A DNA stretch of 64,000 nucleotides from Naegleria gruberi (Eukaryota): NCBI GenBank assembly GCA_000004985.1, contig GG738846.1; one strand, written 5' to 3'. The stretch's first letter is position 1. Every line of letters begins with the position of its first letter. The notes below the pieces were generated by a model. That model had not been told where the DNA came from. It did not search any database and saw only the letters and a list, made by a program, of their open reading frames with translations. This document shows positions 2,267-61,600 of the stretch, one piece after another. The translations under genes were made by a program, and so were the position numbers.

Positions 2267-2340
2267 GCCGTCATAGCTCAGTTGGATAGAGCACAGGACT
2301 TCTAATCCTGGGGTCGTGGGTTCGAGCCCCATTGTCGGTA
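2267..2340 (+). tRNA. tRNA-Arg (anticodon TCT)
   Basis: Cloverleaf read directly: acceptor GCCGTCA/TGTCGGT (one T-T mismatch, one G-U), D-arm GCTC..GAGC, anticodon stem CAGGA/TCCTG with loop CTTCTAA (anticodon TCT at 2301-2303), 5-nt variable loop, T-arm GTGGG TTCGAGC CCCAT. No encoded CCA, as expected for a eukaryotic nuclear tRNA. Confidence 0.8.
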
Positions 2341-18654: not shown

Positions 18655-18911
18655 AATTAAAAGCTTAGGAAGAAATTAATAATGATGAAGCTCCTGTTGT
18701 TGTGCTTTTATTTTTTTAATTATTAATGTAACGCTTGTAATGAGAAGGCGCCAAATCAAAGAGAAATAAACACCGTGGATTTCTCGTTATACTAATGTTT
18801 TATATTCTAGTTTTTGGATGAACATTTCAACCTAACAATTTTTTCTCTAAAGTTTTAGTTTTCAAAATTCTTAAATATTAGACAAACAGAGTTTTAGAGA
18901 TAATTGTGAGT

Positions 18912-22013: not shown

Positions 22014-23205
22014 ATGTCCAGATTATTGCTTGGTGTGTTGCTTGTTGCCATCATCTTGACTTGTGTTGCTTGTCAAGAGCATGTTGAAAAAGAGGGATGG
22101 GATGGTGTTGGCTTTTTCCTAGGTGAGAAATCTGCATCTCAACTCCAAATGGTATGTCAATATTATTATTTCACATCACTAATTATTGTATTATATATAT
22201 TGAACTCTCTAGACAAAAAGAAGAAGTGAAATTCTTTCAATTTTGAACAAACCACCACAACCTTCCAACAAGATTACATCCACTAATCAATCCATTAGAG
22301 ATGTCATTGCTAATGCTCAACTTCCAACATCATCTACTATTAAATTCCCAAATAATAGATTCCCTTCATGCACAAAACAACATTGTAAAAAATTCTGTCG
22401 TCATGGTTTCCAAACTGATGCTCGTGGTTGTCCAATGTGTGCATGTAAACAACCTTGTCCAACTTATAGAGCTTGTAAAAGAAAATGTGAGTTTGGCTAT
22501 GTTCTCGATGCAAATGGTTGTAATAGTAAATGCCAATGCAAAGAAGCTCCAGCTCTTGTCAAACCTAAACCAATATGCCCACAATATTTGTGCAGACGTC
22601 ATTGTCAATTTGGATTCAAAATTAATGAAAAGGGTTGCAGAACTTGTTCCTGTAATGAAAAACCAATCAAACCTAAACCATTAAGTATTTGTCCACTTTA
22701 TAGATGTAGACGTCATTGTCAATTTGGATTCAAAATTAATGAAAAGGGTTGCAGAACTTGTTCCTGTAATGAAAAACCAATCAAACCATCAAGTATTTGC
22801 CCACTTTATGGATGTAGACGTTACTGTCCATATGGATTCAAGATTAATGAAAAGGGATGTACTACTTGTTCCTGTAATGAAACGCCAAATACCACAAAGC
22901 CATTCCCAATCAAACCAATATGCCCACAATATTTGTGTAGACGTCATTGTCAATTTGGATTCAAGATTAATGAAAAGGGTTGCAGAACTTGTTCCTGTAA
23001 TGAAAAGCCAAATACCACAAAGCCTTTCCCAATCAAACCAAACCCAATCAAGCCAGATTTTATTAGAAGATTCATCCAAAATCAAACCAAGCCACTCAAG
23101 TTAAACAATGGCCAAAAAATTGAGACATTGTTTACCAAACCAGCTGTGTTGAGAGCTGAATCTGCTCCAGTCAGAACTTTTCCAAGAAGAGGTGGTAGAA
23201 GATAA
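22014..23205 (+). CDS. secreted protein with six antistasin-like cysteine-knot domains (serine-protease-inhibitor type); 2 exons
   Basis: Exon 1 is 22014..22151 (signal peptide MSRLLLGVLLVAIILTCVACQ, ends ..CAAATG|GTATGT). A 61-nt intron runs to CTCTAG|. Exon 2 is 22213..23205. The domains CRRHCQFGFKINEKGCRTCSCNEKP, CKRKCEFGYVLDANGCNSKCQCKE and CKKFCRHGFQTDARGCPMCACKQ match antistasin/hirustasin (CRVHCPHGFQRSRYGCEFCKC; CRIRCKYGLKKDENGCEYPCSC). Confidence 0.75.
22545..23045 (+). repeat. four tandem, nearly identical coding repeats of about 117-129 nt (antistasin-like domains 3-6), separated by PKP/PIKP linkers
   Basis: The nucleotide strings ...tgtagacgtcattgtcaatttggattcaa[a/g]attaatgaaaagggttgcagaacttgttcctgtaatgaaaa... 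recur with only a few substitutions. The track shows mirror-image spurious ORFs in other frames, as expected for tandem repeats. Confidence 0.8.
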
Positions 23206-33042: not shown

Positions 33043-33264
33043 CCTTGTATTTTTCTAATGATTTGTTTAATGATCGTGCGATGATGATTCCAAACAATAA
33101 ATCCTCCTGCTTTGGGTATTTTTTTTGAACTTGTAGACAAAAATGGCGCCAAATGTTGTTGCAGCTCTCATGTGCAAATAAATACAACACAAGGTTTATT
33201 ATTATTCATGTTCGAACTCGTATGGTAATTGTTTCCATTACTCTGTAGGAATCTATCACATTAT

Positions 33265-35037: not shown

Positions 35038-37161
35038 TTACATTTCTTCAAATTCCTCATTTCTTAGTGGTGTCTTTTTACTTCTTGGTGAAGTTGTAAT
35101 GAAATTGTTATTCGATGAGGAGAGGTAAGGTCTGATTAGTTCCTCAATTTTTTCATCATCTTCATCTTCATCGTAGTTTTCCTCCTCCACTTGGTGATAT
35201 CTTTGATAATGGTGGTTCATATTTGAAATATTTACATGGTGAGAATCTTGGTCATCACTGTCAAGCTCAACATCACTTCCAAGATCTTCAGGTTCTGCTT
35301 GCTTTTCCTCAAATAAAAGACTGTCTTGAAGTTGCGAATTCTCGACACCTTCTTGATAGTATTGCAGGGATTCCTCCATTTCATGGTCTCTTCTTGAGCT
35401 TGACATTTGTTTTTGTCTGTAAAAATCCACAGTATCTTTCAGATTTTGATTGTCAATCTTCAAAGAGTTCAAACATTCCAATAAGATTTCATTTTCTTTG
35501 GCAATGCTATTGTTCACTTCTTCTACATTAGTTAATTGTTTGATTTTCTCCTTTAGTAAATCATTCTCTCCTTCAACAAAACTAAGCTTGCCTTGAATTT
35601 CTGCAACCTTCTTGAAAATCACTTCCTCACGTTCTTCACTCTCTGATTCTTTTGATTTCTTGTTTGCAATCTCATTCTTAATGGTAAATCCAAGCTGCTC
35701 ACATTCTGCTTCCTTCTTTCTAAGAGCTTCAGAGAATCGGTCAATAACTGATTGTTTTTCTGCTAGATCCCTGCCAAGTCTTTCTATTTGGTATTGTTTT
35801 TCACGATCTTGTTTCTCTGCTTCCCTTCTGGAGAGATTGATTTCCTCTTGTTTTTTGAAAATTTCCTTTTCCACTTCAGTTTCGAGTATCGCCTTTTCAT
35901 TTTCGAGTTGAGTAATCTTCTTTTCCATGCCAAGAATTTGTTGAGAGGATGCCTGAGCTTTTTGAGTTTCTTTTTGTACTGTTTTTTCTGCCTTTTGTAA
36001 ATCCTTTGTAAGTTTTTCAATCCTAGATTCCATCTTTTGTTGGCTTTGTAGTAATTCAACCTTTAATCTCTGCTCAACTATTAAAAGGTCCTCCTTTTCC
36101 TTACTGAGATGATTGACACTTTGTTGAATCAAGACATTTTGAGTTTTTTGTTCAGATAGGGTTTCTTGGAGAGAGTCAATTTTTGATTTGTAGAATTTTT
36201 CTCTTTGAGTTGAATTTTGTAATTGAGTTTGAATAGCAAGGTTCTTTTGTTGCAAATCATCAAATTGAGCGATGGTTTCCTCAAGAGCTGCAATTTGTTT
36301 TTTAAAATGGGTAAGTATTTGATCGTGTCTATTCTTTTCTTTTTCAATATGTCGTGCAAGCTTTCCTACCTTTTCGTCGTGTCTCTCTTGCATTTCACGA
36401 AGTACATCTTGGTGTTGTTCAATAATTCTTTGGGTATTTTTCTTTTCATCCTGTAATTGATCTTGAATATTAGCCATAGCCATTTTTACTTCATGAATCT
36501 CATTGAGATATTCCTCACATTGATTCTTCTTTTGGCCCAACTCTTTGTTGATATCTATGATTGATTGTGTCTTTTCCTTGTTAGATTTTTCCAAATCCTT
36601 ATTCATTGATTCCAATACTCCTTTACTTTCAATAAGATTCTTCTCTCTATGTTCACTCAAATCTAGTTGGGATTGAACTTCCTCTAGTTGATGCTGAAGA
36701 TTTCTAATTTCCTCAAGAAGTTCTCTTTCTTTCACTCTCCTTCTTTCGCATTCTTGATCCAATTCATTTCTACTCACTCTTAACTTGTGCTCCAAATCTC
36801 TCACTTGGTCATTAGAATACTGAAGCTTGACAGCATAATTTCCAACATTATCTTGGAGTTGGGATATCTTTACAGACATTCTTTGATTACTTTCTCTTAT
36901 TAACTTGGCTTCATCTTCCTCATAAGTATTTGAATACCAATTGTTTTTGTCCATCACACCAGATTTTTGATTCACATCGGAATATCCAAAGTGTGGAGAT
37001 CTTCCTTTCATTGGTGGAGAAAGATTGGAGAGTGAAGAATTCATGGTGAAACTAGCTGATGAAGGAGAGGCCTGAATATTATTAACCATGGATTTCAAGT
37101 TGTTAATCCTCTCATTAAGCTCCCTCGCTGTATTTGCCGTTGAATGGTTGCTTGTGTTCAT
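35038..37161 (-). CDS. long coiled-coil protein (about 700 aa)
   Basis: Uninterrupted ORF dominated by heptad-like E/K/Q/L repeats with an acidic C-terminus. No specific family recognised. Confidence 0.5.
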   Translation of the reverse strand: MNTSNHSTANTARELNERINNLKSMVNNIQASPSSASFTMNSSLSNLSPPMKGRSPHFGYSDVNQKSGVMDKNNWYSNTYEEDEAKLIRESNQRMSVKISQLQDNVGNYAVKLQYSNDQVRDLEHKLRVSRNELDQECERRRVKERELLEEIRNLQHQLEEVQSQLDLSEHREKNLIESKGVLESMNKDLEKSNKEKTQSIIDINKELGQKKNQCEEYLNEIHEVKMAMANIQDQLQDEKKNTQRIIEQHQDVLREMQERHDEKVGKLARHIEKEKNRHDQILTHFKKQIAALEETIAQFDDLQQKNLAIQTQLQNSTQREKFYKSKIDSLQETLSEQKTQNVLIQQSVNHLSKEKEDLLIVEQRLKVELLQSQQKMESRIEKLTKDLQKAEKTVQKETQKAQASSQQILGMEKKITQLENEKAILETEVEKEIFKKQEEINLSRREAEKQDREKQYQIERLGRDLAEKQSVIDRFSEALRKKEAECEQLGFTIKNEIANKKSKESESEEREEVIFKKVAEIQGKLSFVEGENDLLKEKIKQLTNVEEVNNSIAKENEILLECLNSLKIDNQNLKDTVDFYRQKQMSSSRRDHEMEESLQYYQEGVENSQLQDSLLFEEKQAEPEDLGSDVELDSDDQDSHHVNISNMNHHYQRYHQVEEENYDEDEDDEKIEELIRPYLSSSNNNFITTSPRSKKTPLRNEEFEEM

Positions 37162-37269: not shown

Positions 37270-38292
37270 TTATATGATTTGTTTAGTATTATAGCTGGCA
37301 CAGTTTGAACATTTCATTCCAAAGACATGGAAATCAGCTTCACCCTTATTCAAGCATTCATTACAAAGTATATTAACCTTCTTTCTAAATTCTTGTGGCA
37401 TGGGAGAGTTTTGAATTTCTCTATCCATTAATTCAGTATCAATATCAACCATGTATTTTTGGCATAGTGGACAATTGTAAACTCGGTTTTTAAGCATGGA
37501 TTTGAAGCAACTAGAGTGCATTGGATGACCACACTTTAATAAGTGAACACTACTCGTTGAAGAAAAGAGATTTTCCAAACAAACAGGACAATTCGAATGC
37601 ATTGAATTTGGAATACATTTGTGACTTGGAGCCATACAAGCTCCACAAGTGTAACAATGAATAAATTGCTCTCTCTTTCCAATTCTACAAATTTTGCAAC
37701 CCTAATAATAATAATAATTCACACAGAGTCATTAAATTGATAAAATAAATTATTGACATACCTCACAATGATAAATTGAACGATTTTTATCGTTACTATA
37801 AATGTGACAAATTGTGCAAGAATAAAATTCTCCAAATTGGGTATTACAATTTGGATTTTCACAAATTACATTATCACTTGACTGTTCCAACTGACATCTC
37901 ATACATTTAATTCTTTCCACAGAATATCTATCCATTTGTTCAACTTTACATTTACATTTCTGGAATGCCTCTGCATCATGGCACAATCTACACCAATAAA
38001 ACTCCTTACAGCATGGTGATTGAATCATACAATTATGAGGATAGTGTGAACAACCCAAATCAGTTGAATAAGTTTTAGTATCTAACCCTTCCGAAGAATT
38101 TTCCTCTTGTTTTTCCTCCTCAGTTTCATCCTCCTCTATTGATACATCGTCATCATAATGATCGGAACCATCAATACTTTCCCAATCCTCTTCATTGTCC
38201 TCCTCCGCATTTTCGCCTTGTTGTTGTTGTTGTGGGGTGGTATCTTCTTCGTTGTGTTCTGCCATGTTGTTGTGTTGTTCTTCTTCACTCAT
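37270..38292 (-). CDS. CHY zinc-finger / RING-H2 E3 ubiquitin ligase (Pirh2/RCHY1-like); 2 exons
   Basis: Exons are complement(37762..38292) and complement(37270..37701), joined by a 60-nt GTATGT..TTATTAG intron (phase 0). The spliced sequence YHCEGCKICRIGKREQFIHCYTCGACM..NCPVCLENLFSS..LKCGHPMHSSCF..YNCPLCQK..LCNECLNKGEADFHVFGMKCSNCASYNT is colinear with human RCHY1: CHY finger, CTCHY, RING-H2 and zinc ribbon. Confidence 0.8.
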
Positions 38293-38391
38293 TTTTTTCA
38301 AACTTAATTTTCATTGTTTATTCGATTTAATTTTATTAGATTTTTAAATAACGATGCAAATTAGATTTATTTGAATATGAAGATCTCATGA

Positions 38392-54681: not shown

Positions 54682-55040
54682 TTTTTAAAGATCTGAATAT
54701 TCTTTCAGGTAGTTCACTTATGCAGTAGTGAAAATGGTTGTAGCTGAGTAAGGATTCGTGTAGTGCCATGCAACATTTTGAAAAGTAACAAGTTTAGAAT
54801 AATTTAATTGAATGGAGTCAATCCTTTTTTTACTGCTGATCTTTTCATAATTCTATCAATACATGCCTTAATATGTGGACATGATTGCAAGTTTTGAGAT
54901 TGCAAGTTATGAATTTCTCTTACCTTAATTTTAACTTGTAATCAAAAATACTAGTAATCAATTTGAAAAATAGTGCTCAAACGGAAAATGAACTGGATTC
55001 AACGTCACTTGTCTACGAAGCGAAAGAATCAATTATTAAA

Positions 55041-56007
55041 AAAATGAGGAAGAATTTTCGCACAGTCTCAGAGCTGCCACCAACATCACCTCGAAAACCA
55101 CTCCCAACATTGCCCAATCTTTTAAAATCTTCTAATAACAACGGCTCCAAACTCCTGCCAACATCACCACGAGGACAGCAAACATTTGTTGCAATCAGTA
55201 CCGATGAGGAAGAATTAATCAGTCTCTTATCAATGGAAGGAACAAAGGTGTTTGTGATTGGTTTGTGGGATGAGACGAGTCCTCTTCTTTCTAATAACTC
55301 TTCGAATGCTACTACAACAGGTAACAGTAGTACGATTGGAACTACAAGGAGAGTGCCACCACCACTCCCACCAAAGACAACATTAAATAATAGAAGATTG
55401 AGTAAAATCTGCTTTGACACAACATGTTTCATATCGGAAGATGGAAAGGCTCTAGTTTGTGAGAGTGATTTACCATCATCAGGACCTTTGGGAATGCAAA
55501 AACGAAGTAATAGTATGTTGTTATTAATTTCACATGCATATTAATATTGGAATTTTTCATCTCAATTGTCAATACTACTATCTATTACATAATTTGTCAC
55601 ATTATGATCTGATTTCATTGATAATAATATTATTATTATTATTAATAATAGTAATTCTCTTTTCCGAAGTGGAAAAGATTGTACCATACTATCAATCAGA
55701 AATATTGATAGGAAACCAGATTTCAGACTCAAATACTAATAACACAATATCACCAAGACAATCCAACAATTCAAATCCCTATCAAATCACCACTCAAGAT
55801 GCACGTGAATGTGTCTCCTTCTTTGAAAGATACTTCATTTCAGGCTATGACAATAACGATAGAGAATATCAAAAATCTCTCCTTCCCTACAAGCTGCAAC
55901 TCTTCATTCTCAAACGAAAGAACCACAAAAAGACGTTGGGATTCATCTTATCGGGTATGTTTTTTAATCAAAGTCTAAGATTGTGCTTACCATATTGCCT
56001 TAATTGA
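55041..56007 (+). CDS. hypothetical proline-rich protein; 2 exons; relationship to the downstream DENN gene unresolved
   Basis: Exons are 55041..55512 (first in-frame ATG MRKNFRTVSELPPTSPRKP; the track ORF opens at 54963 without an ATG) and 55652..56007, joined by a 139-nt AT-rich GTATGT..AATAG intron. Its terminal residues after ..TLGFILSG look like translated intron (GTATGT at 55955), and its stop is only 48 nt from the next gene's ATG. Confidence 0.4.
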
Positions 56008-56054
56008 TTTTTGCCTTGTCGCAATTTTTTACCACCAAATCCTTAAATTTCCGA

Positions 56055-58553
56055 ATGTTGTTGTTGTATTGTGTTGCATGTGGCTACATCATGGTGATTC
56101 TATCAAAAATTGAAAAAACCCCTTTACTCTCTAATCTCTCATCTATATTTTCTCATTGGACGTCAATTAATATGCACTCACTTTCCAATAATCGGAATTC
56201 TAAAACTCTAAACTCTATACCTCCTACTGAATTAACATGTAATAATGATTCATCATCTCCATCATCATCACCCAATAATAATAATAATAATAACACTGTT
56301 GAATCAACAATAACACCAACTCGACAACGTTGTCTACCACCTGTTCCTCCAAATAATGTACAAAAACAATCATCTCCCCAACCTCCTCCTCCTCCTTTTA
56401 ATCGACAATCACCTCCCCAACCTCCTAAACGAACAACCTCAACAATGGAACATTCATCATCTATTATTTCTGATAATAATATGAATTCTGAATCAACCAT
56501 TTATGCTAACAAATCAACAACAAATAATTCACCTCCTCATCAACAATATCATCATCATCGTACCTTACCAATAATTCCAATTCGAAATTATCATGAAAAT
56601 GATATTACACCTTCAACTCTTAATCCTACTGTTGTTACTACTTTTCAAAATCATTCCAATAACCATAATCACTCTGTTCCTGCATTGCCAATTAAAAAAG
56701 ATCCAATGCAAGCATCAACATGGATAAAAGGATTACAAATGGTTTCTGATGATTCAAGAGGACTTTTATCTGCATCAACTCTTGCCAAAACAACCAATGT
56801 AAATAATCAATCATCTAAAATTGAGGAAGAAAAGAGAACATCTTTTGGAAACAAGAAGACTGAAATATCAAGTGACAATACCAGATACTTGCCACCACCA
56901 TTGAAAATCAATAGAATGGAATCACCTAATAATGATGTAAATAATGAATTGGCTAAACAATTACAAAAATTGAAAAGAACACCAGCAACACCAACTACCA
57001 GCTCTACTTCGAATGGTGGCAGTGGGTCTAATTCTTCAAGTAGACATTCTAGTATTGAGATACAAAGAGGAAGTGACCCAGAAACAAGTGCAGAGAAGAA
57101 ACTATTTGAAGTTGTGGTAGTAGTCAAACTGAAACAAACAGACAAATTGGAACCTTTCATAGATTATGAATTTCCACCACAAAATGTCAGAAGTACAAAA
57201 GACTTGAAACTTGTCATGTCAATTCCATTATTTTGTTGTAAGTTATTGTAAAAATTAATATGAAAAGCTAAGAGTCACTAGTTCCTGATATTGATACTGT
57301 TAAGGAGGGGACTTCATTATCAGGTGGTGATAAGAAAACATATAGCTTTGTCTTGACAGAAATAGATGGTACTAGAAAGTATGGATACTGCAGAAGAATG
57401 CTTCCAAAAGGTACTGGGAAACGATTGCCAGAAACTTACTGCATCATTTCTTCACACTCATGTTTTGGATTATTCTCTACAATACTCGATAATATTGAAA
57501 CAAGAAATGAAATTAATAATGTGGCCTGTTTCACTTTCCTTAAAAGTGTACTAGCTAATCCATTTCCATCACCAGGTACCTGCACCATTGTCAAGACAGT
57601 AAATCCCAAGACAGGTCAACAGGAAGAAGTTAAATTATCTAGACCTATTCTTGCTGATCCAATGTTGGAATACGTAAGTTTCATGAAACAAACCTATTTT
57701 GATTTTAATATCCAACATACGTATTATTAATAATTCTATCATCAAATAATAGATTAATTTCAACATATTATTCGAGAGTCTTTCTGCTGACAATATAATT
57801 ACCATGTTTGCATTTTTATTAATGGAAAGAAGAATGGTCATATTTTCAAATGACATTTCAAAATTATCTGCATTTTGTCAGGCAATGATTAGTATATTGT
57901 ATCCTTTTACATGGCAACATGTGTTCATTCCAGTTTTACCTCAATCATTGGTTGACTATGTTTGTAGTCCTGTCCCATTTGTCATTGGTGTCCTCAGTAA
58001 TCACAAACCATATATTGAGGAGCTGAAGAAGGATGGACAAGTAGAAGCAGAAGTGCTCTACATTGATATCGATTCTGGAAAGGTTTCAGAACCTTCTACC
58101 CTCAAGGATCAAAAGAAGATACTACCAAGCAATAAGGACTTGATTAAAAAGTTGACAGCTATCGCCAAGGAAATCAAAAACTCAAAGAATTCAAATCAAG
58201 TAGCAATGGCAAAAGACACATTTTTAATGTTCTTTGTTAAATTATTTGGAGATTACAAGGCATTTATCAAGCCGAATGCTGAATTTAATACTGAAAAGAA
58301 GAAGAATACACCCGAGTGGATATTCGATACCAAAGTGTTCTTGGACTATAAGAAGAAGAATAACAAGAAAAAGTATGAAAAGTTCTTTATCAACTTTACT
58401 CAATGCCAAATGTTCGAACGATGGTCTGCTGAAATAGCAAACCAAAGTCAAAACAAATCTGCCACTACTGCTTCACTAGATAAGGAACTTGGTTTGTTTG
58501 AACAACTTTCAGCCATATCTCAACAACAATTACTTTTGGACAAAAAGAAATAA
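56055..58553 (+). CDS. DENN-domain protein (Rab GEF family) with a long S/P/N-rich N-terminal region; 3 exons
   Basis: Exons are 56055..57237, 57282..57673 and 57753..58553, with introns of 44 nt (GTAAGT..CACTAG) and 79 nt (GTAAGT..AATAG). The upstream DENN block reads FEVVVVVKLKQ..PFIDYEFP..MSIPLFC|FPDIDT..YSFVLTEIDGTRKYGYCRRM..YCIISSHSCFGLF. The core DENN block reads MFAFLLMERRMVIFSNDISKLSAFCQAMISILYPFTWQHVFIPVLPQSLVDYVCSPVPFVIGV. Splicing the 44-nt intron recreates the canonical FCFP motif. Start assigned to the first ATG in frame after the stop at 56001. Confidence 0.75.
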
Positions 58554-58627
58554 AATGTTGTTGTATTGTGATAATATCTTTATTTCAATCATTAATGTTA
58601 TTAATGTTGAATGAAAGTTAGAATTGA

Positions 58628-61600
58628 TTATTGTCTAACAACTGGCATACTTGGAGGTTTAGTAACAAGCGAGTATCTTGGAGGTGGTGCATCCATTCTT
58701 ATTGTACTCATTTCAATACTCTCACTCACAACAATTTCCTTACCTATAGCAGGAATTTCTTGTTGCTCAAATACATCGAAATAGCTATTCTCAAAGGCAT
58801 AATCAATTTCATTGGAATTATCAAACCCACCAGAAATAGCTGGTGCTGAATTGGCAATCATTGTTGGAGGTCTCAGAGACATTCTCTTCGAACGTCTATC
58901 TTTGGCCTTATGTTCATCATCCTCTTCGACAACTAGTTCATTTCTAATCCATACATAATTTCTAATGAATGGAATGACAAAGTTGAGGATCAACAGGAGA
59001 GCAATGGTTGCTCCATTGATAACGTATAAAATGATGGATTGATTAGAGTTAGAAATAATGAGCCAATCGATTCCCAATTCCTTAATGTCCTTATATCTCA
59101 ATAACCAATAACCAAATAATAAATTGAATGAAAGTACCAAGTGAAGAATGGAGCTACTAATGGAAAGGGTAATGTCATGGTAAGGTCTAAATAGAATCAT
59201 GTACACGGATACAATGAACATGAGTCCACTACCAATAGGTGCTTGAAGAACAAGATTGGTATTCAAGAATGAAACCAAACAAGTCATGGTAATAAATTCA
59301 AACACATAGAAAAGGAATTGATATTTAAACATATTTTTGAATGATTCAAAAACAACACTAATACTACTCGTACTATTTCTAATACCATTGATATACTTTT
59401 TGAAAATGATATTCTCATTCTTCTTGATAGATTTGAGAAGTAGCTTTCTTTCCTCAGTGGATATGGATTCCTTAATAGGTGTGCTACTATTATCAATCTT
59501 TTTGATTTTTTGTTTGTATTCCTTTTTCTTTCTTCTGAGTAATAATAAATCATCATTAATAGAATTTTCATAGATAATCTTTGAGTGATTCTTGTAAATA
59601 AATATGAAAATCATGAATGGAATTAAAATTAAATAAAAGATACCAAATCCAATAGAAACCCAATACATGATTGGGAATTTAAGAGGTTTGAATAATGACT
59701 CTGGACATGCTTCATTATTGAATATACGTAAGTTTGAAGTATTTCTGAAAGAGAGAGTCGTGTTGTAATTTTCAACCATCCATATTGGAACAGTGGTACT
59801 GTTAGTTGTTGCCAATCTTACCATATTACTTTCACATTCAAATGTAGAAAAGATACTTCTCACACAAACAAAGTAAAAAATTGTAAAGACAATCCACAAT
59901 AAACGCTGTCTAATCTTGATAAAGTTGATGAAAAACATTTGATCCTGATACTTGACTCTATAAATTATAAGATATACAACAAAAATAGCAAATAACAACA
60001 GCAATACTGCAACAGAAAATCCAAATAATCCCCAAACATCTATTGCACTTGGTAATTCTCCTCTTGCAAATTCGTCATATGTTGATGGAAAGACAGCAAA
60101 TGAACCAGCAGCAACAATAAAGATTAGTAATATAAAGCAACATATACATGTAAACATTGTCCAACATAGTTTGCTCACAAATAATTTTACAGATGTCTTA
60201 TAGTTGGGGTTCAGCAGGAACAATATTAGGAAAACCCCTGGTAAAATCATTTCCCATGAATATATGAAATAGTAATTGTTAAACTTGATGGTTTTCCAAA
60301 TTAAATCCAAACTATTAATTGATAGAACATTGTACTTGATAATCATATTATAATAGTATGGCCAAGGAATTGAGAATGAATAACAAATAGAATATAATTG
60401 AAAGGCAAATAGTAAAAAGTAAATCTTTTCAAATACACCATCAAACAAGTTGGTATATTCACCCTTGAGTAGAAGAATATCTTGATATTGTTGTAAAATC
60501 TTAATATTAGAATAATTGTCTTGAATAAATTCAAATGGTACCAAAGTTCCATGAGGATCCTTCAAAATCATGTCTGAAAACTTATCATTCGAGAGTAAAC
60601 CTGGATGATGATAATTAGGAATTGTTTCATCTAGTGGAAGAGTAGCAGTTGTGATATTTGTCCAATTCTTGGTAGGTGAAACTTTAATTGCTTTTGTTTT
60701 AGAATTTGGATCATTGCTAGCTGCATTAGTTGGACTTGATGGACTTGTTGGAGATTTGGGTCCAGAATCGTGTCTGGAGAATAAACCTCTAACAGTTTCA
60801 TTCAAATGTTCTTTTGATAATTGTTCAATGATGGAATTTCTCACTGCTGAATAAGTGAGTACAGGTCTAAGAGCAAATCCTTTTCTTTCGATAATATTTC
60901 TCAAACGATTAATTTCAATAATTGTAATGGCCTTATCATTGGATGTGACCATTCTACCATCAATTTCATCCAAAGTTCTAATGTGAGACATTAGCAAGAG
61001 TCTATAATCACTCACAGGAATATTAAATGATTTAAAGTAGACAGACTTTGGTCCAATCAATTCAATTTTGGATTCAGCTCCTATATACATTTGATTTCTA
61101 TCATTATCAACAATGGTTGTTTGTCTACTGAGAGGTTGAGTACTAGTGGTACCTCCTTCATTAGGAGGAGCAACACCTCCCAGGTTGTAGCTACTCTTTT
61201 CCTTATTTTTCACATTTGAAACAAGTGTTGTATCATAGAGAGTGACCAGACTGGAAAGAGACAATAATAAAGTATAGAATTGGTTCAATTGATTGATTTG
61301 ATCATCAATTTGAATATTTGTGAGAGAGTTTGGTGATACATTGTAATGATTTTGTAAAAATTGTGAAGCAAGCAATTGAGATTTAGAAAGTGGGAAGGGA
61401 TTAGTAAAATCATCAACATTTTGTAATAAACGCAAAGTTGAAAATACTTGAATGTAATATTTTGCTGGATCTAAGAATAATTGACCGCCACATCTTTGAA
61501 TGTAAAGGGTACGCAAAGATCCAGAAGATCCAATTATATTCAAAATAAGCTGTTCATCCTGAACTGATATATCATTATCTCTAATATCGAGATAGTGCAA

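What the first reader, a model, noticed from the sequence alone, without database searches (positions are those of the whole stretch)
55955..56700. 720-nt AG-free stretch and an unresolved gene boundary upstream of the DENN gene
Between about 55980 and 56698 the + strand contains no AG dinucleotide at all; about 35 would be expected from base composition. The stretch is G-poor S/P/N/T/H-rich coding sequence: there are no G-initial codons for about 240 codons. The upstream gene ends in a GTATGT donor-like site at 55955, but no acceptor exists before 56699, so the proline-rich DENN N-terminus must begin at an ATG (56055) only 48 nt after the upstream stop, the tightest tandem spacing in the window. 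Alternatively, the donor at 55954 and the acceptor at 56699/56700 are phase-compatible and would yield an isoform that skips the low-complexity region (..TLGFILS-D-PMQASTWIKGLQ..). Use of alternative promoters and first exons is possible.
Basis: partly seen in the sequence, partly recalled or inferred. Interest (0 to 1): 0.5.

Follow-up and report, generated by a model that had tools for sequence, protein, structure and literature searches.

The report
AG-free coding stretch inside a Naegleria intron
The 720-base stretch with no AG is the inside of a 746-base intron that cuts through a conserved domain of one Naegleria gruberi gene (annotated publicly as two genes). It also looks like protein-coding sequence, so its codons appear to have been chosen to avoid creating a false splice acceptor.

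Summary
There is no AG on the + strand from 55980 to 56698, a gap of 721 nt; the next-longest AG gap is 216 nt. One detail is wrong: the frame has 21 G-initial codons.

The window is Naegleria gruberi NEG-M. The public annotation gives two genes, NAEGRDRAFT_61938 (274 aa) and NAEGRDRAFT_61939 (752 aa). Homologues show a single PH-DENN gene. The splice 55954^56701 joins the last strand of a PH domain to its C-terminal helix (..KTLGFILS-D-PMQASTWIKGLQ..). A close relative (L003) has an intron at the same codon and phase, but only 104 nt long.

So the AG-free stretch is the interior of a 746-nt intron. It also carries an orphan 231-codon ORF in frame with exon 3, with normal coding statistics. 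Every Ser, Arg, Lys, Gln and Glu uses an AG-free codon (P about 1e-11 to 1e-15).

Best reading: an extreme AG exclusion zone, purged so that the donor at 55955 finds its acceptor at 56700. It is laid over what is probably an alternative, internally initiated first coding exon. No transcript data could be reached.

This is a new variant of a known kind. Interest 0.6.

The parts
55044..55512 (+). Exon 1 of the PH-DENN gene: start codon, Pro-rich N-terminus and first PH strands.
   Evidence: This exon is part of XP_002682690.1. It aligns to L003 and to PH_12-bearing homologues.
55513..55651 (+). Intron 1, 139 nt, GTATGT..AG, 19% GC, no internal AG.
   Evidence: The public 274-aa model confirms it. 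L003 has an intron at the same site.
55652..55954 (+). Exon 2: the remaining PH beta-strands, ending ..KTLGFILS plus the first base of an Asp codon (phase 1).
   Evidence: The PH-region alignment A2 is 62% identical to the L003 orthologue.
55955..56700 (+). Intron 2, 746 nt, GTATGT...AAG. It splits the PH domain between its last strand and its C-terminal helix. GC is 33%, which is exon-like.
   Evidence: The junction is conserved in homologues (BLASTP across it gives E = 2e-7; alignment). The orthologous 104-nt intron sits at L003 1317-1420. The length is not a multiple of 3.
55972..55979 (+). The only two internal AGs (AAAG and TAAG at +18 and +24 from the 5' splice site). They lie upstream of the exclusion zone.
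   Evidence: Using either as an acceptor gives an in-frame stop (read directly from the sequence).
55980..56698 (+). AG-free zone, 719 nt.
   Evidence: A second haplotype (L010) keeps it, with a gap of 723 nt.
55999..56037 (+). Candidate distant branch point (CTTAAT / TTGAT, branch A at 56003 or 56007, +49/+53), followed by a T-rich tract at 56008-56037. This is inferred only.
   Evidence: YTRAY positions are; the sequence is. The layout matches that of verified distant branch points in PMC1431707. The region carries a 2-nt indel in L010, so it is not coding.
56055..56698 (+). Low-complexity ORF in frame and contiguous with exon 3, with in-frame ATGs at 56055, 56091 and 56172. It is probably an alternative first coding exon. 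The public model XP_002682691.1 starts at 56172.
   Evidence: - The frame is open for 231 codons back from the acceptor; 0 of 5000 dinucleotide shuffles reach 230, and stops per frame are 1, 8 and 31.
- The codon log-likelihood ratio is +0.24 per codon, against 0.29 +/- 0.09 for coding windows.
- No indel falls in the ORF in L010.
- The only match among 1.84e9 representative proteins is to itself.
56699..56700 (+). 3' splice site AG (AAG|AT), the first AG after the zone.
55957..55968 (+). 5' arm of a terminal inverted repeat (ATGTTTTTTAAT). It pairs with 56691-56702.
   Evidence: Eleven of 12 bases are complementary. P is about 0.001 in shuffles, and 0 of 131 internal windows reach it. The pairing closes both the MFE and the centroid fold.
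56691..56702 (+). 3' arm of the terminal inverted repeat (ATTAAAAAAGAT), spanning the acceptor.
56701..57237 (+). Exon 3: the PH C-terminal helix (DPMQASTWIKGLQ), a linker and the start of uDENN.
57238..57281 (+). Intron 3, 44 nt.
   Evidence: The public 752-aa model confirms it.
57282..57673 (+). Exon 4 (uDENN / DENN).
57674..57752 (+). Intron 4, 79 nt, with no AG after the donor hexamer.
57753..58553 (+). Exon 5 (DENN and the C-terminus, including the stop codon).

Best explanation
The locus is one N. gruberi gene encoding a protein with a proline-rich N-terminus, a PH domain, uDENN and DENN. It is 833 aa when spliced as 55044-55512, 55652-55954, 56701-57237, 57282-57673 and 57753-58553. The AG-free stretch is the interior of its second intron (55955-56700).

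Why the stretch has no AG: in Naegleria the 3' splice site seems to be the first AG reached downstream of a branch point that lies near the 5' end of the intron. Any AG arising in these 720 nt would therefore become a premature acceptor and wreck the PH-DENN mRNA. Selection has removed all of them. This is an extreme AG exclusion zone.

Why the stretch looks coding: the same DNA carries a young, species-specific low-complexity ORF that runs straight into exon 3. Most likely it is translated from transcripts that start inside the intron, downstream of the donor. That would give a second isoform (Pro-rich low-complexity N-terminus plus DENN, the publicly annotated XP_002682691.1). The ORF can then use only AG-free codons and codon junctions.

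Shown:
- the AG void and its improbability;
- the coding statistics of the ORF;
- conservation of the splice junction and of the intron position;
- preservation of both properties in a second haplotype.

Inferred:
- that the splice is used in N. gruberi;
- the scanning mechanism and the branch point position (about +49/+53);
- the internal transcription start and translation of the ORF.
For: One gene:
- The window is N. gruberi NEG-M; three ORF products match its RefSeq proteins exactly.
- The fused protein has uDENN and DENN.
- Homologues carry a PH domain that ends ..DLICEDPMQTFTWIKGLELL, scoring Pfam PH_12 at 39.5 and 30.4 bits against a cutoff of 27.
- The window's exon 2 / exon 3 junction aligns across this point (E = 2e-7; full-domain alignment).
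- The close relative L003 has a GT..AG intron at the same codon and phase, 104 nt long and AG-free inside.
- More distant L002 and L005 have no intron there and no insertion.

AG void under selection:
- Zero AG against 18.7 expected from composition and 24.3 from the codon-aware null. All 7 Arg are CGN although 78% of Arg codons in the window are AGR. All 32 Ser are TCN, all 7 Lys AAA, all 9 Gln CAA and all 6 Glu GAA. None of the 21 G-initial codons follows an A.
- Other low-complexity exons are not depleted.
- The void is strand-specific.
- Haplotype L010 (99.15% identical) keeps it, and none of its 5 differences inside the intron creates an AG.

General rule:
- Seven other introns of at least 60 nt hold 1 AG against 16.1 expected (P about 2e-6), and that one is at +25. 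Short introns skip only AGs that lie 14 nt or less upstream of the acceptor or within +12 of the donor.
- Six of the comparison introns are identical in the public models.
- YTRAY motifs cluster at +29..+35.

Coding:
- Searches give the ORF and codon statistics.
- In L010, indels occur only upstream of ATG 56055, and 2 of the 3 ORF SNPs are synonymous.
Against: - No transcript, lariat or peptide data could be reached. Use of the 55954^56701 junction and translation of the ORF in N. gruberi are both inferred.
- Pfam does not detect a PH domain in the N. gruberi or L003 sequence itself, because low-complexity loop insertions interrupt it.
- A search for the first AG over about 700 nt is longer than any documented case I found (438 nt in PMC1431707).
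- The acceptor has no pyrimidine tract and is the weak AAG type.
- ATG 56055 and ATG 56172 lack the A-rich context seen before most start codons in the window.
- The ORF has no homologue anywhere and is absent from L003, so it could be young and not yet functional.
- The intron census is small: 13 introns, partly curated by me. Choosing the first frame-restoring AG as acceptor could bias it toward AG-free interiors.
Confidence: 0.62

Rival explanations
1. Plain long intron. The stretch is spliced out and kept AG-free for splicing, as above, but the ORF is never translated. It would be a recent insertion or slippage expansion of coding-like low-complexity sequence that is still open because it is young.
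For: - The ORF is an orphan and is missing from the orthologous 104-nt intron of L003.
- It contains internal imperfect repeats typical of slippage.
- The start-codon contexts are weak.
- Haplotype data are too sparse to show purifying selection on the protein: 2 synonymous and 1 nonsynonymous SNP.
Against: - 231 open codons with 1, 8 and 31 stops in the three frames; 0 of 5000 shuffles match this.
- The open frame is the one that continues into exon 3.
- The codon log-likelihood ratio lies inside the coding range and far above off-frame values.
- Composition is strongly 3-periodic.
- Both indels between haplotypes fall in the 100 nt upstream of the ATG and none in the 645-nt ORF.
- GC is 33%, against 18-29% for five of the six other window introns of at least 60 nt.
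Confidence: 0.24
2. Two independent genes, as in the public annotation and the reader's first reading. The donor at 55955 is not used, and the AG void is a by-product of G-poor low-complexity composition.
For: - The public models XP_002682690.1 and XP_002682691.1 exist.
- Composition can produce AG gaps of about 200 nt. For example, 38122-38338 is the antisense of an acidic coding region.
Against: - P(0 AG) is about 1e-8 from composition and 1e-11 to 1e-15 from the codon-aware nulls.
- No other low-complexity exon is depleted.
- The PH domain would be cut before its C-terminal helix, yet both halves are conserved with L003, as are the donor, the phase and the intron position.
- The public 274-aa model ends in 17 unconserved residues read from intron sequence. 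In L010 that tail differs because of a frameshift.
Confidence: 0.05
3. Very recent gene fission. The ancestral PH-DENN gene has just split into two genes in N. gruberi, and the AG-free zone is a decaying relic of the time when the intron was still spliced.
For: - The ORF and the long intron are specific to N. gruberi.
- The annotation treats the locus as two genes.
Against: - The donor GTATGT, the phase and the helix sequence are intact in two haplotypes.
- None of the roughly 300 single-base routes to an AG has been taken in either haplotype.
- A PH domain lacking its helix would not be expected to stay 62% identical to its orthologue.
Confidence: 0.05
4. A single exon with a 248-residue loop inserted in the PH domain, read through by frameshifting, stop-codon read-through or a sequencing error near 56000.
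For: In haplotype L010 the two indels put exon 2 in the same frame as the ORF, separated by a single TAA.
Against: - In NEG-M the frames differ, and both candidate frames have stops at 56001-56007.
- Two independent assemblies each carry an intervening stop.
- No homologue has an insertion here.
- This reading would not explain the AG void.
Confidence: 0.02

Closest known systems
AG exclusion zones upstream of exons with distant branch points in vertebrates (PTB exon 11, nPTB, alpha-tropomyosin exon 3, GABBR1 exon 23; Gooding et al. 2006, PMC1431707)
   Same: - There is a long stretch with no AG immediately upstream of a 3' splice site.
- AGs occur at normal frequency upstream of the zone.
- Branch-point-like motifs plus a T-rich tract sit at the 5' end of the zone.
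- AGs close to the branch point are bypassed.
- The arrangement is associated with alternative transcript structure.
   Different: - The zone is about 720 nt, against 438 nt or less in that data set.
- It fills almost the whole intron.
- Its content is an A/C/T-rich ORF with coding statistics, not a pyrimidine-rich regulatory region.
- The constraint shows up as synonymous codon choice.
- The organism is a heterolobosean, in which AG exclusion seems to apply to ordinary introns too.
- The branch point is not mapped.
Exitrons (protein-coding sequences inside exons that can be spliced out). This comparison rests on my own recollection of the literature.
   Same: One stretch of DNA has both intron identity and coding identity.
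   Different: - The intron is not internal to one coding exon.
- Its length (746) is not a multiple of 3.
- Retention after exon 2 runs into a stop at 56005-56007.
- Coding use would need a separate transcription start.
Alternative first exons driven by intronic promoters, where the alternative first exon is a 5' extension of the next exon. This is general knowledge.
   Same: Two N-termini would share the downstream exons. The alternative first exon has no acceptor and is contiguous with exon 3.
   Different: The whole alternative exon lies between the presumed branch point and the acceptor of the other isoform's intron. It is therefore under a sequence-wide ban on AG. The promoter is not demonstrated.
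Yeast introns with long branch point to 3' splice site distances, where RNA structure shortens the effective distance (Gahura et al. 2011, PMC3239191, listed; only the start of its abstract, as listed there, was read)
   Same: An 11/12 inverted repeat pairs bases +3..+14 of the intron with the 12 bases spanning the acceptor. It closes the predicted fold.
   Different: The helix is pure A-U and weak (-6.1 kcal/mol). The overall fold is no more stable than shuffles (z = -0.66). The repeat is not conserved in L003, and it is untested.
DENND2-type DENN proteins and protist PH_12-DENN proteins (Acrasis kona AKO1_008526, metagenomic P0001-P0003)
   Same: uDENN and DENN are 36-50% identical to these proteins, and the N-terminal PH domain has the helix ..TWIKGL...
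   Different: The N. gruberi PH domain carries low-complexity loop insertions and falls below Pfam detection. The gene is split into two public models.

Membership tests
AG exclusion zone / distant-branch-point intron | A used GT..AG intron ends at the downstream border of the AG-free stretch. | tested here: met
   GTATGT is at 55955 and AG at 56699/56700. The junction rebuilds a conserved PH helix, and the orthologous intron in L003 is at the same codon and phase. Use in N. gruberi RNA was not observed directly.
AG exclusion zone / distant-branch-point intron | No AG lies between the branch point and the 3' splice site, well beyond chance. | tested here: met
   Zero AG in 719 nt, with P from 1e-8 to 1e-15 depending on the null.
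AG exclusion zone / distant-branch-point intron | A branch point sequence and pyrimidine tract lie at the 5' end of the zone. | tested here: inconclusive
   TTAAT and TTGAT (branch A at +49 and +53) are followed by a 71% pyrimidine tract at 56008-56037. Such motifs are common in AT-rich DNA, and proximal candidates also exist (AATTAAAAAAG).
AG exclusion zone / distant-branch-point intron | The branch point is mapped experimentally, and inserting an AG shifts the acceptor. | not testable with these tools
   This needs lariat sequencing or mutagenesis.
Exitron | The intron lies inside a single coding exon, its length is a multiple of 3, and retention keeps the frame. | tested here: not met
   746 = 3 x 248 + 2. 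The exon 2 frame stops at 56005-56007.
U12-type intron | The 5' splice site is /RTATCCTT, with a TCCTTAAC branch site 10-15 nt from the acceptor. | tested here: not met
   The donor is GTATGTTT. The TCCTTAAA-like motif at 56041-56048 lies 650 nt from the acceptor.
Introner / transposon-derived intron | Many near-identical copies in the genome, terminal repeats and a target-site duplication. | tested here: inconclusive
   There is no second copy in the 64-kb window and no protein homologue anywhere. An 11/12 terminal inverted repeat is present, but no target-site duplication is seen. The rest of the genome could not be searched.
PH_12 - uDENN - DENN protein (DENND2-like) | uDENN and DENN domains are present. 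| tested here: met
   PF03456 scores E = 1.1e-12 and PF02141 scores E = 5.3e-45.
PH_12 - uDENN - DENN protein (DENND2-like) | An N-terminal PH domain (PF16457) is present. | tested here: inconclusive
   The window protein and L003 get no Pfam hit. The homologues L002 and P0002 do, and the window sequence aligns to them along the whole domain, with the invariant W and G-L of the helix.

The most novel reading that the evidence does not exclude
Naegleria may anchor its branch points about 30-50 nt from the 5' splice site and take the first downstream AG as acceptor, whatever the distance. Every intron would then be an AG exclusion zone. In this gene, evolution would have placed a translated, internally initiated first exon of about 215 codons inside that scanning zone. 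The spliceosome's search rule would then dictate the exon's synonymous codon usage (no AGY, AGR, AAG, CAG or GAG, and no NNA-GNN junction). That would make it a natural 700-nt test of the linear-scanning model.
Probability: 0.3. Interest if true: 0.75.

Novelty: new variant of a known kind. Interest (0 to 1): 0.6.

Why it matters
- **Annotation.** It corrects the N. gruberi reference. NAEGRDRAFT_61938 and NAEGRDRAFT_61939 are parts of one PH-DENN (Rab-GEF-type) gene, and the 274-aa model ends in translated intron sequence.
- **Test of the scanning model.** It would be the longest AG exclusion zone I could find described. It lies in an organism far from animals and yeast, which makes the 'first AG downstream of the branch point' model testable on a natural 700-nt substrate.
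- **Splicing shaping codon choice.** It is a very clean case of a splicing rule constraining synonymous codons: 7 of 7 Arg use the rare CGN codons in an AT-rich, CpG-poor genome.
- **Intron prediction.** The small census suggests that AG exclusion from about +26 to the acceptor is general in Naegleria. That would be a simple and useful rule for predicting introns there, and a clue that branch points are set relative to the 5' splice site.

Tried and rejected
- **Mini-introns.** Using the AGs at +18 or +24 as acceptors gives an immediate stop or frame 2 full of stops.
- **Sequencing error or frameshift fusing the frames.** Both assemblies keep a stop between exon 2 and the ORF, and no homologue has an insertion there.
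- **Composition artefact.** Rejected by the codon-aware nulls and by the low-complexity controls. The 216-nt runner-up gap is a composition effect, being the antisense of an acidic region.
- **Repeated element or introner.** No other copy is in the window.
- **Structured RNA or snoRNA in the intron.** Rfam gives nothing (best E = 0.31), and the fold is no more stable than shuffles.
- **U12 intron.** The donor does not fit.
- **Homologues of the low-complexity ORF.** Only a self-match was found among 1.84e9 representatives.
- **Transcript evidence.** The Logan and ENA contigs that carry the locus (L010, L011) are genomic. No paper mentions either gene.
- **Metagenome scan for closer orthologues.** It returned only 5 loci, none closer than L003.
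- **First protein search.** It was swamped by low-complexity words (6 hits among 8000 candidates). Neither protein search returned an N. fowleri, N. lovaniensis or Willaertia orthologue of this gene, so conservation of the intron within named Naegleria species is unknown.
Full report
**Observation.** On the + strand the last AG before the stretch is at 55978/55979 and the next is at 56699/56700. This 721-nt gap is the longest for any dinucleotide in the window. The next AG gaps are 216 nt (+ strand) and 196 nt (- strand). The 719 bases between hold A 244, T 237, C 183 and G 55. The 55 G are preceded by T 40 times, C 10 times, G 5 times and A never. Local composition predicts 18.7 AG, while CT (57 observed, 60 expected) and GA (19 observed, 18.7 expected) are normal. 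So the depletion is specific to AG and to this strand. Frame 0 has 21 of them in 214 codons, but none follows a codon ending in A.

**Organism and public annotation.** Exact matches of window ORF products to XP_002682891.1 (HSP90) and XP_002682893.1 identify the window as Naegleria gruberi NEG-M (HSP90 relatives). The public record has two genes here:
- XP_002682690.1 / NAEGRDRAFT_61938 (274 aa) equals exon 1 plus exon 2, read through the GTATGT at 55955 to the stop at 56005-56007.
- XP_002682691.1 / NAEGRDRAFT_61939 (752 aa) starts at ATG 56172, runs through the low-complexity stretch into the DENN exons, and uses the introns 57238-57281 and 57674-57752.

No paper in the library mentions either gene.

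**It is one gene.** Splicing 55954 to 56701 is phase-compatible and gives an 833-aa protein with uDENN and DENN. Homologues from Acrasis kona and from metagenomes carry an N-terminal PH domain that ends ..DLICEDPMQTFTWIKGLELL / ..DLICNDMMQTQTWIKGLKLL. In two of them this region matches Pfam PH_12 above threshold, right up to that helix. The window's junction sequence KTLGFILS-D-PMQASTWIKGLQMV aligns across it (E = 2e-7). The whole N-terminal region aligns along the domain, interrupted by low-complexity loops.

A close relative, L003, is syntenic and 62% identical over the aligned PH region (A2). It has a GT..AG intron at exactly the same codon and phase (..GFICA-D-PMQSSTWIKGLQ..), but the intron is only 104 nt and has no internal AG. 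More distant relatives (L002, L005) have no intron and no insertion there; their intron lies six codons downstream. The N. gruberi intron (55955-56700, 746 nt) is a version expanded by about 640 nt.

**The interior of the intron looks like coding sequence.**
- Frame 0, the frame of exon 3, is open for 231 codons back from the acceptor. The other two frames hold 8 and 31 stops, and 0 of 5000 dinucleotide-preserving shuffles reach 230 open codons (maximum 192).
- Base composition is strongly 3-periodic: C is 0.29, 0.39 and 0.09, and T is 0.24, 0.21 and 0.50 at codon positions 1, 2 and 3.
- A codon-usage log-likelihood ratio trained on the window's genes gives +0.24 per codon in frame 0. In-frame coding windows give 0.29 +/- 0.09, and off-frame windows give at most -0.085.
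- GC is 33%, like exons; five of the six other window introns of at least 60 nt are 18-29% GC.
- A second haplotype from an ENA metagenome (L010, 99.15% identical) has two indels in the intron. Both lie in the 100 nt upstream of ATG 56055. The ORF itself has no indel and three SNPs, two of them synonymous and one P to T.
- The ORF is an orphan. Among 1.84 billion representative proteins it matches only itself. It has no other copy in the window.

**The AG void acts on synonymous sites.** Given the ORF's amino acids and the window's codon usage, 24.3 +/- 3.7 AG are expected, and the minimum in 20,000 resamplings was 10.

| Amino acid | Codons used in the ORF | Usage of those codons in the window's genes |
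|---|---|---|
| Arg | 7 of 7 CGN | 22% CGN (78% AGR) |
| Ser | 32 of 32 TCN | 74% TCN |
| Lys | 7 of 7 AAA | 51% AAA |
| Gln | 9 of 9 CAA | 85% CAA |
| Glu | 6 of 6 GAA | 74% GAA |

The joint probability is about 1e-12 for within-codon AG and about 1e-2.5 for codon junctions. With codon usage taken only from other low-complexity segments it is still 1e-11.4. Those 15 segments carry 1.9-8.8 AG per 100 nt, and no 645-nt coding window has fewer than 16 AG. The void persists in L010 (723 nt), where none of the five differences inside the intron creates an AG.

**Mechanism.** An AG-free stretch that ends at an acceptor is the signature of an AG exclusion zone. After branch formation the spliceosome takes the first AG downstream of the branch point, and AGs within about 12-15 nt of the branch point are bypassed. 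Verified distant branch points sit at the 5' end of such zones. The cases cited from that data set reach 381-438 nt (PMC1431707).

In this intron the only internal AGs are at +18 and +24. YTRAY motifs with branch A at +49 and +53 (56003, 56007) are followed by a T-rich tract at 56008-56037, all upstream of the first ATG of the ORF.

The window suggests this is how Naegleria introns work in general. Seven other introns of at least 60 nt (626 internal nt) hold one AG against 16.1 expected (P about 2e-6), and that one is at +25. The 43-47-nt introns skip only AGs that lie 14 nt or less upstream of the acceptor or within +12 of the donor. Five of six long introns have a YTRAY with its A at +29..+35. 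Six of the comparison introns are identical in the public models. This census is small and partly curated by me, so I treat the general rule as a lead.

An 11/12 inverted repeat pairs +3..+14 of the intron with the 12 bases spanning the acceptor (P about 0.001). It closes both the MFE and the centroid folds, which would bring the acceptor next to the 5' end. The helix is weak (-6.1 kcal/mol), the overall fold is unremarkable (z = -0.66), and the repeat is not seen in L003.

**Synthesis.** The best-supported picture is a single PH-DENN gene whose second intron has been expanded by a young low-complexity ORF. Selection on correct splicing of the PH-DENN mRNA forbids AG anywhere between the branch point region and 56700. 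At the same time the stretch keeps an open, codon-biased frame that continues into exon 3. This is most simply explained if transcripts starting inside the intron, downstream of the donor, are translated into a second isoform with a different proline-rich N-terminus. Both N-termini contain PxxP-type motifs; this last point is read from the sequence, not tested.

The main rival is that the ORF is not translated and is merely young. It is supported by the ORF's orphan status, its absence from L003 and the poor start-codon contexts. Three other readings are poorly supported:
- Two independent genes would leave the PH domain cut in half and leave the void unexplained.
- A recent gene fission would leave the void as a relic, but nothing has decayed in either haplotype.
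- A read-through insertion isoform is contradicted by stops in both haplotypes, although in L010 only one TAA separates the frames.

**Limits.** No RNA, lariat or protein evidence was reachable. Pfam does not call the PH domain in the N. gruberi sequence itself. Orthologues from named Naegleria species were not retrieved. The branch point is inferred.

**Verdict.** The interpretation needs inverting: the 'alternative' splice is the main, conserved structure, and the annotated low-complexity N-terminus is at best a second isoform. It is a new variant of a known kind, an AG exclusion zone. It is unusual in its length, in overlapping coding-like sequence, and in its lineage.

Noticed in passing
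window introns 22152-22212, 55513-55651, 57674-57752 (+); 47323-47209, 37761-37702, 20366-20243 (-); L003 1317-1420: Ordinary Naegleria introns of at least 60 nt are almost free of AG from about +26 to the acceptor: 1 observed against 16.1 expected, and that one is at +25. Five of the six in the window have a YTRAY motif with its A at +29..+35 from the 5' splice site. This suggests branch points anchored to the 5' end and a first-AG rule.
   Followed up: partly
window 55957-55968 and 56691-56702: An 11/12 terminal inverted repeat (ATGTTTTTTAAT / ATTAAAAAAGAT) pairs the start of the long intron with its acceptor. P is about 0.001, and it closes the predicted MFE and centroid folds. The helix is weak, all A-U, and absent from L003.
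   Followed up: partly
L010 (ENA ERZ929261 contig, equivalent to window 55585-59584): This is a second haplotype, 99.15% identical. Its two indels in the intron leader (-1 at 55970, +2 at 56019) put exon 2 in the same frame as the low-complexity ORF, with a single TAA between them. It also has a K to R change in the PH helix (WIKGLQ to WIRGLQ).
   Followed up: partly
window 54989-55048: A 19-codon upstream ORF (ATGAACTGG...AAAAAATGA) ends with its stop overlapping the main start codon 55044 of the PH-DENN gene (ATGA overlap).
   Followed up: no
window 18747-18754 (-), 33145-33152 (-); also about 30 nt upstream of the ATG at 37161 (-): TTGGCGCC, an E2F-site-like motif, lies about 100 nt upstream of two start codons (2 matches against 0.1 expected). 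A variant, ATGGCGCC, lies upstream of a third. It may be a promoter element.
   Followed up: partly
window 38122-38338: The second-longest AG gap (216 nt) is the antisense strand of the acidic E/D-rich N-terminus of a minus-strand gene. It is a plain composition effect and a useful contrast to the 721-nt gap.
   Followed up: yes
window 2267-2340 (+): tRNA-Arg(TCT) lies 80 nt upstream of the 1134-aa EGF/REJ-domain ORF that starts at 2420.
   Followed up: no
window 55044-56007 (public model XP_002682690.1): The public 274-aa protein ends in 17 residues (GMFFNQSLRLCLPYCLN) translated from intron sequence. The tail differs in the second haplotype because of a frameshift. It is an annotation artefact.
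   Followed up: yes
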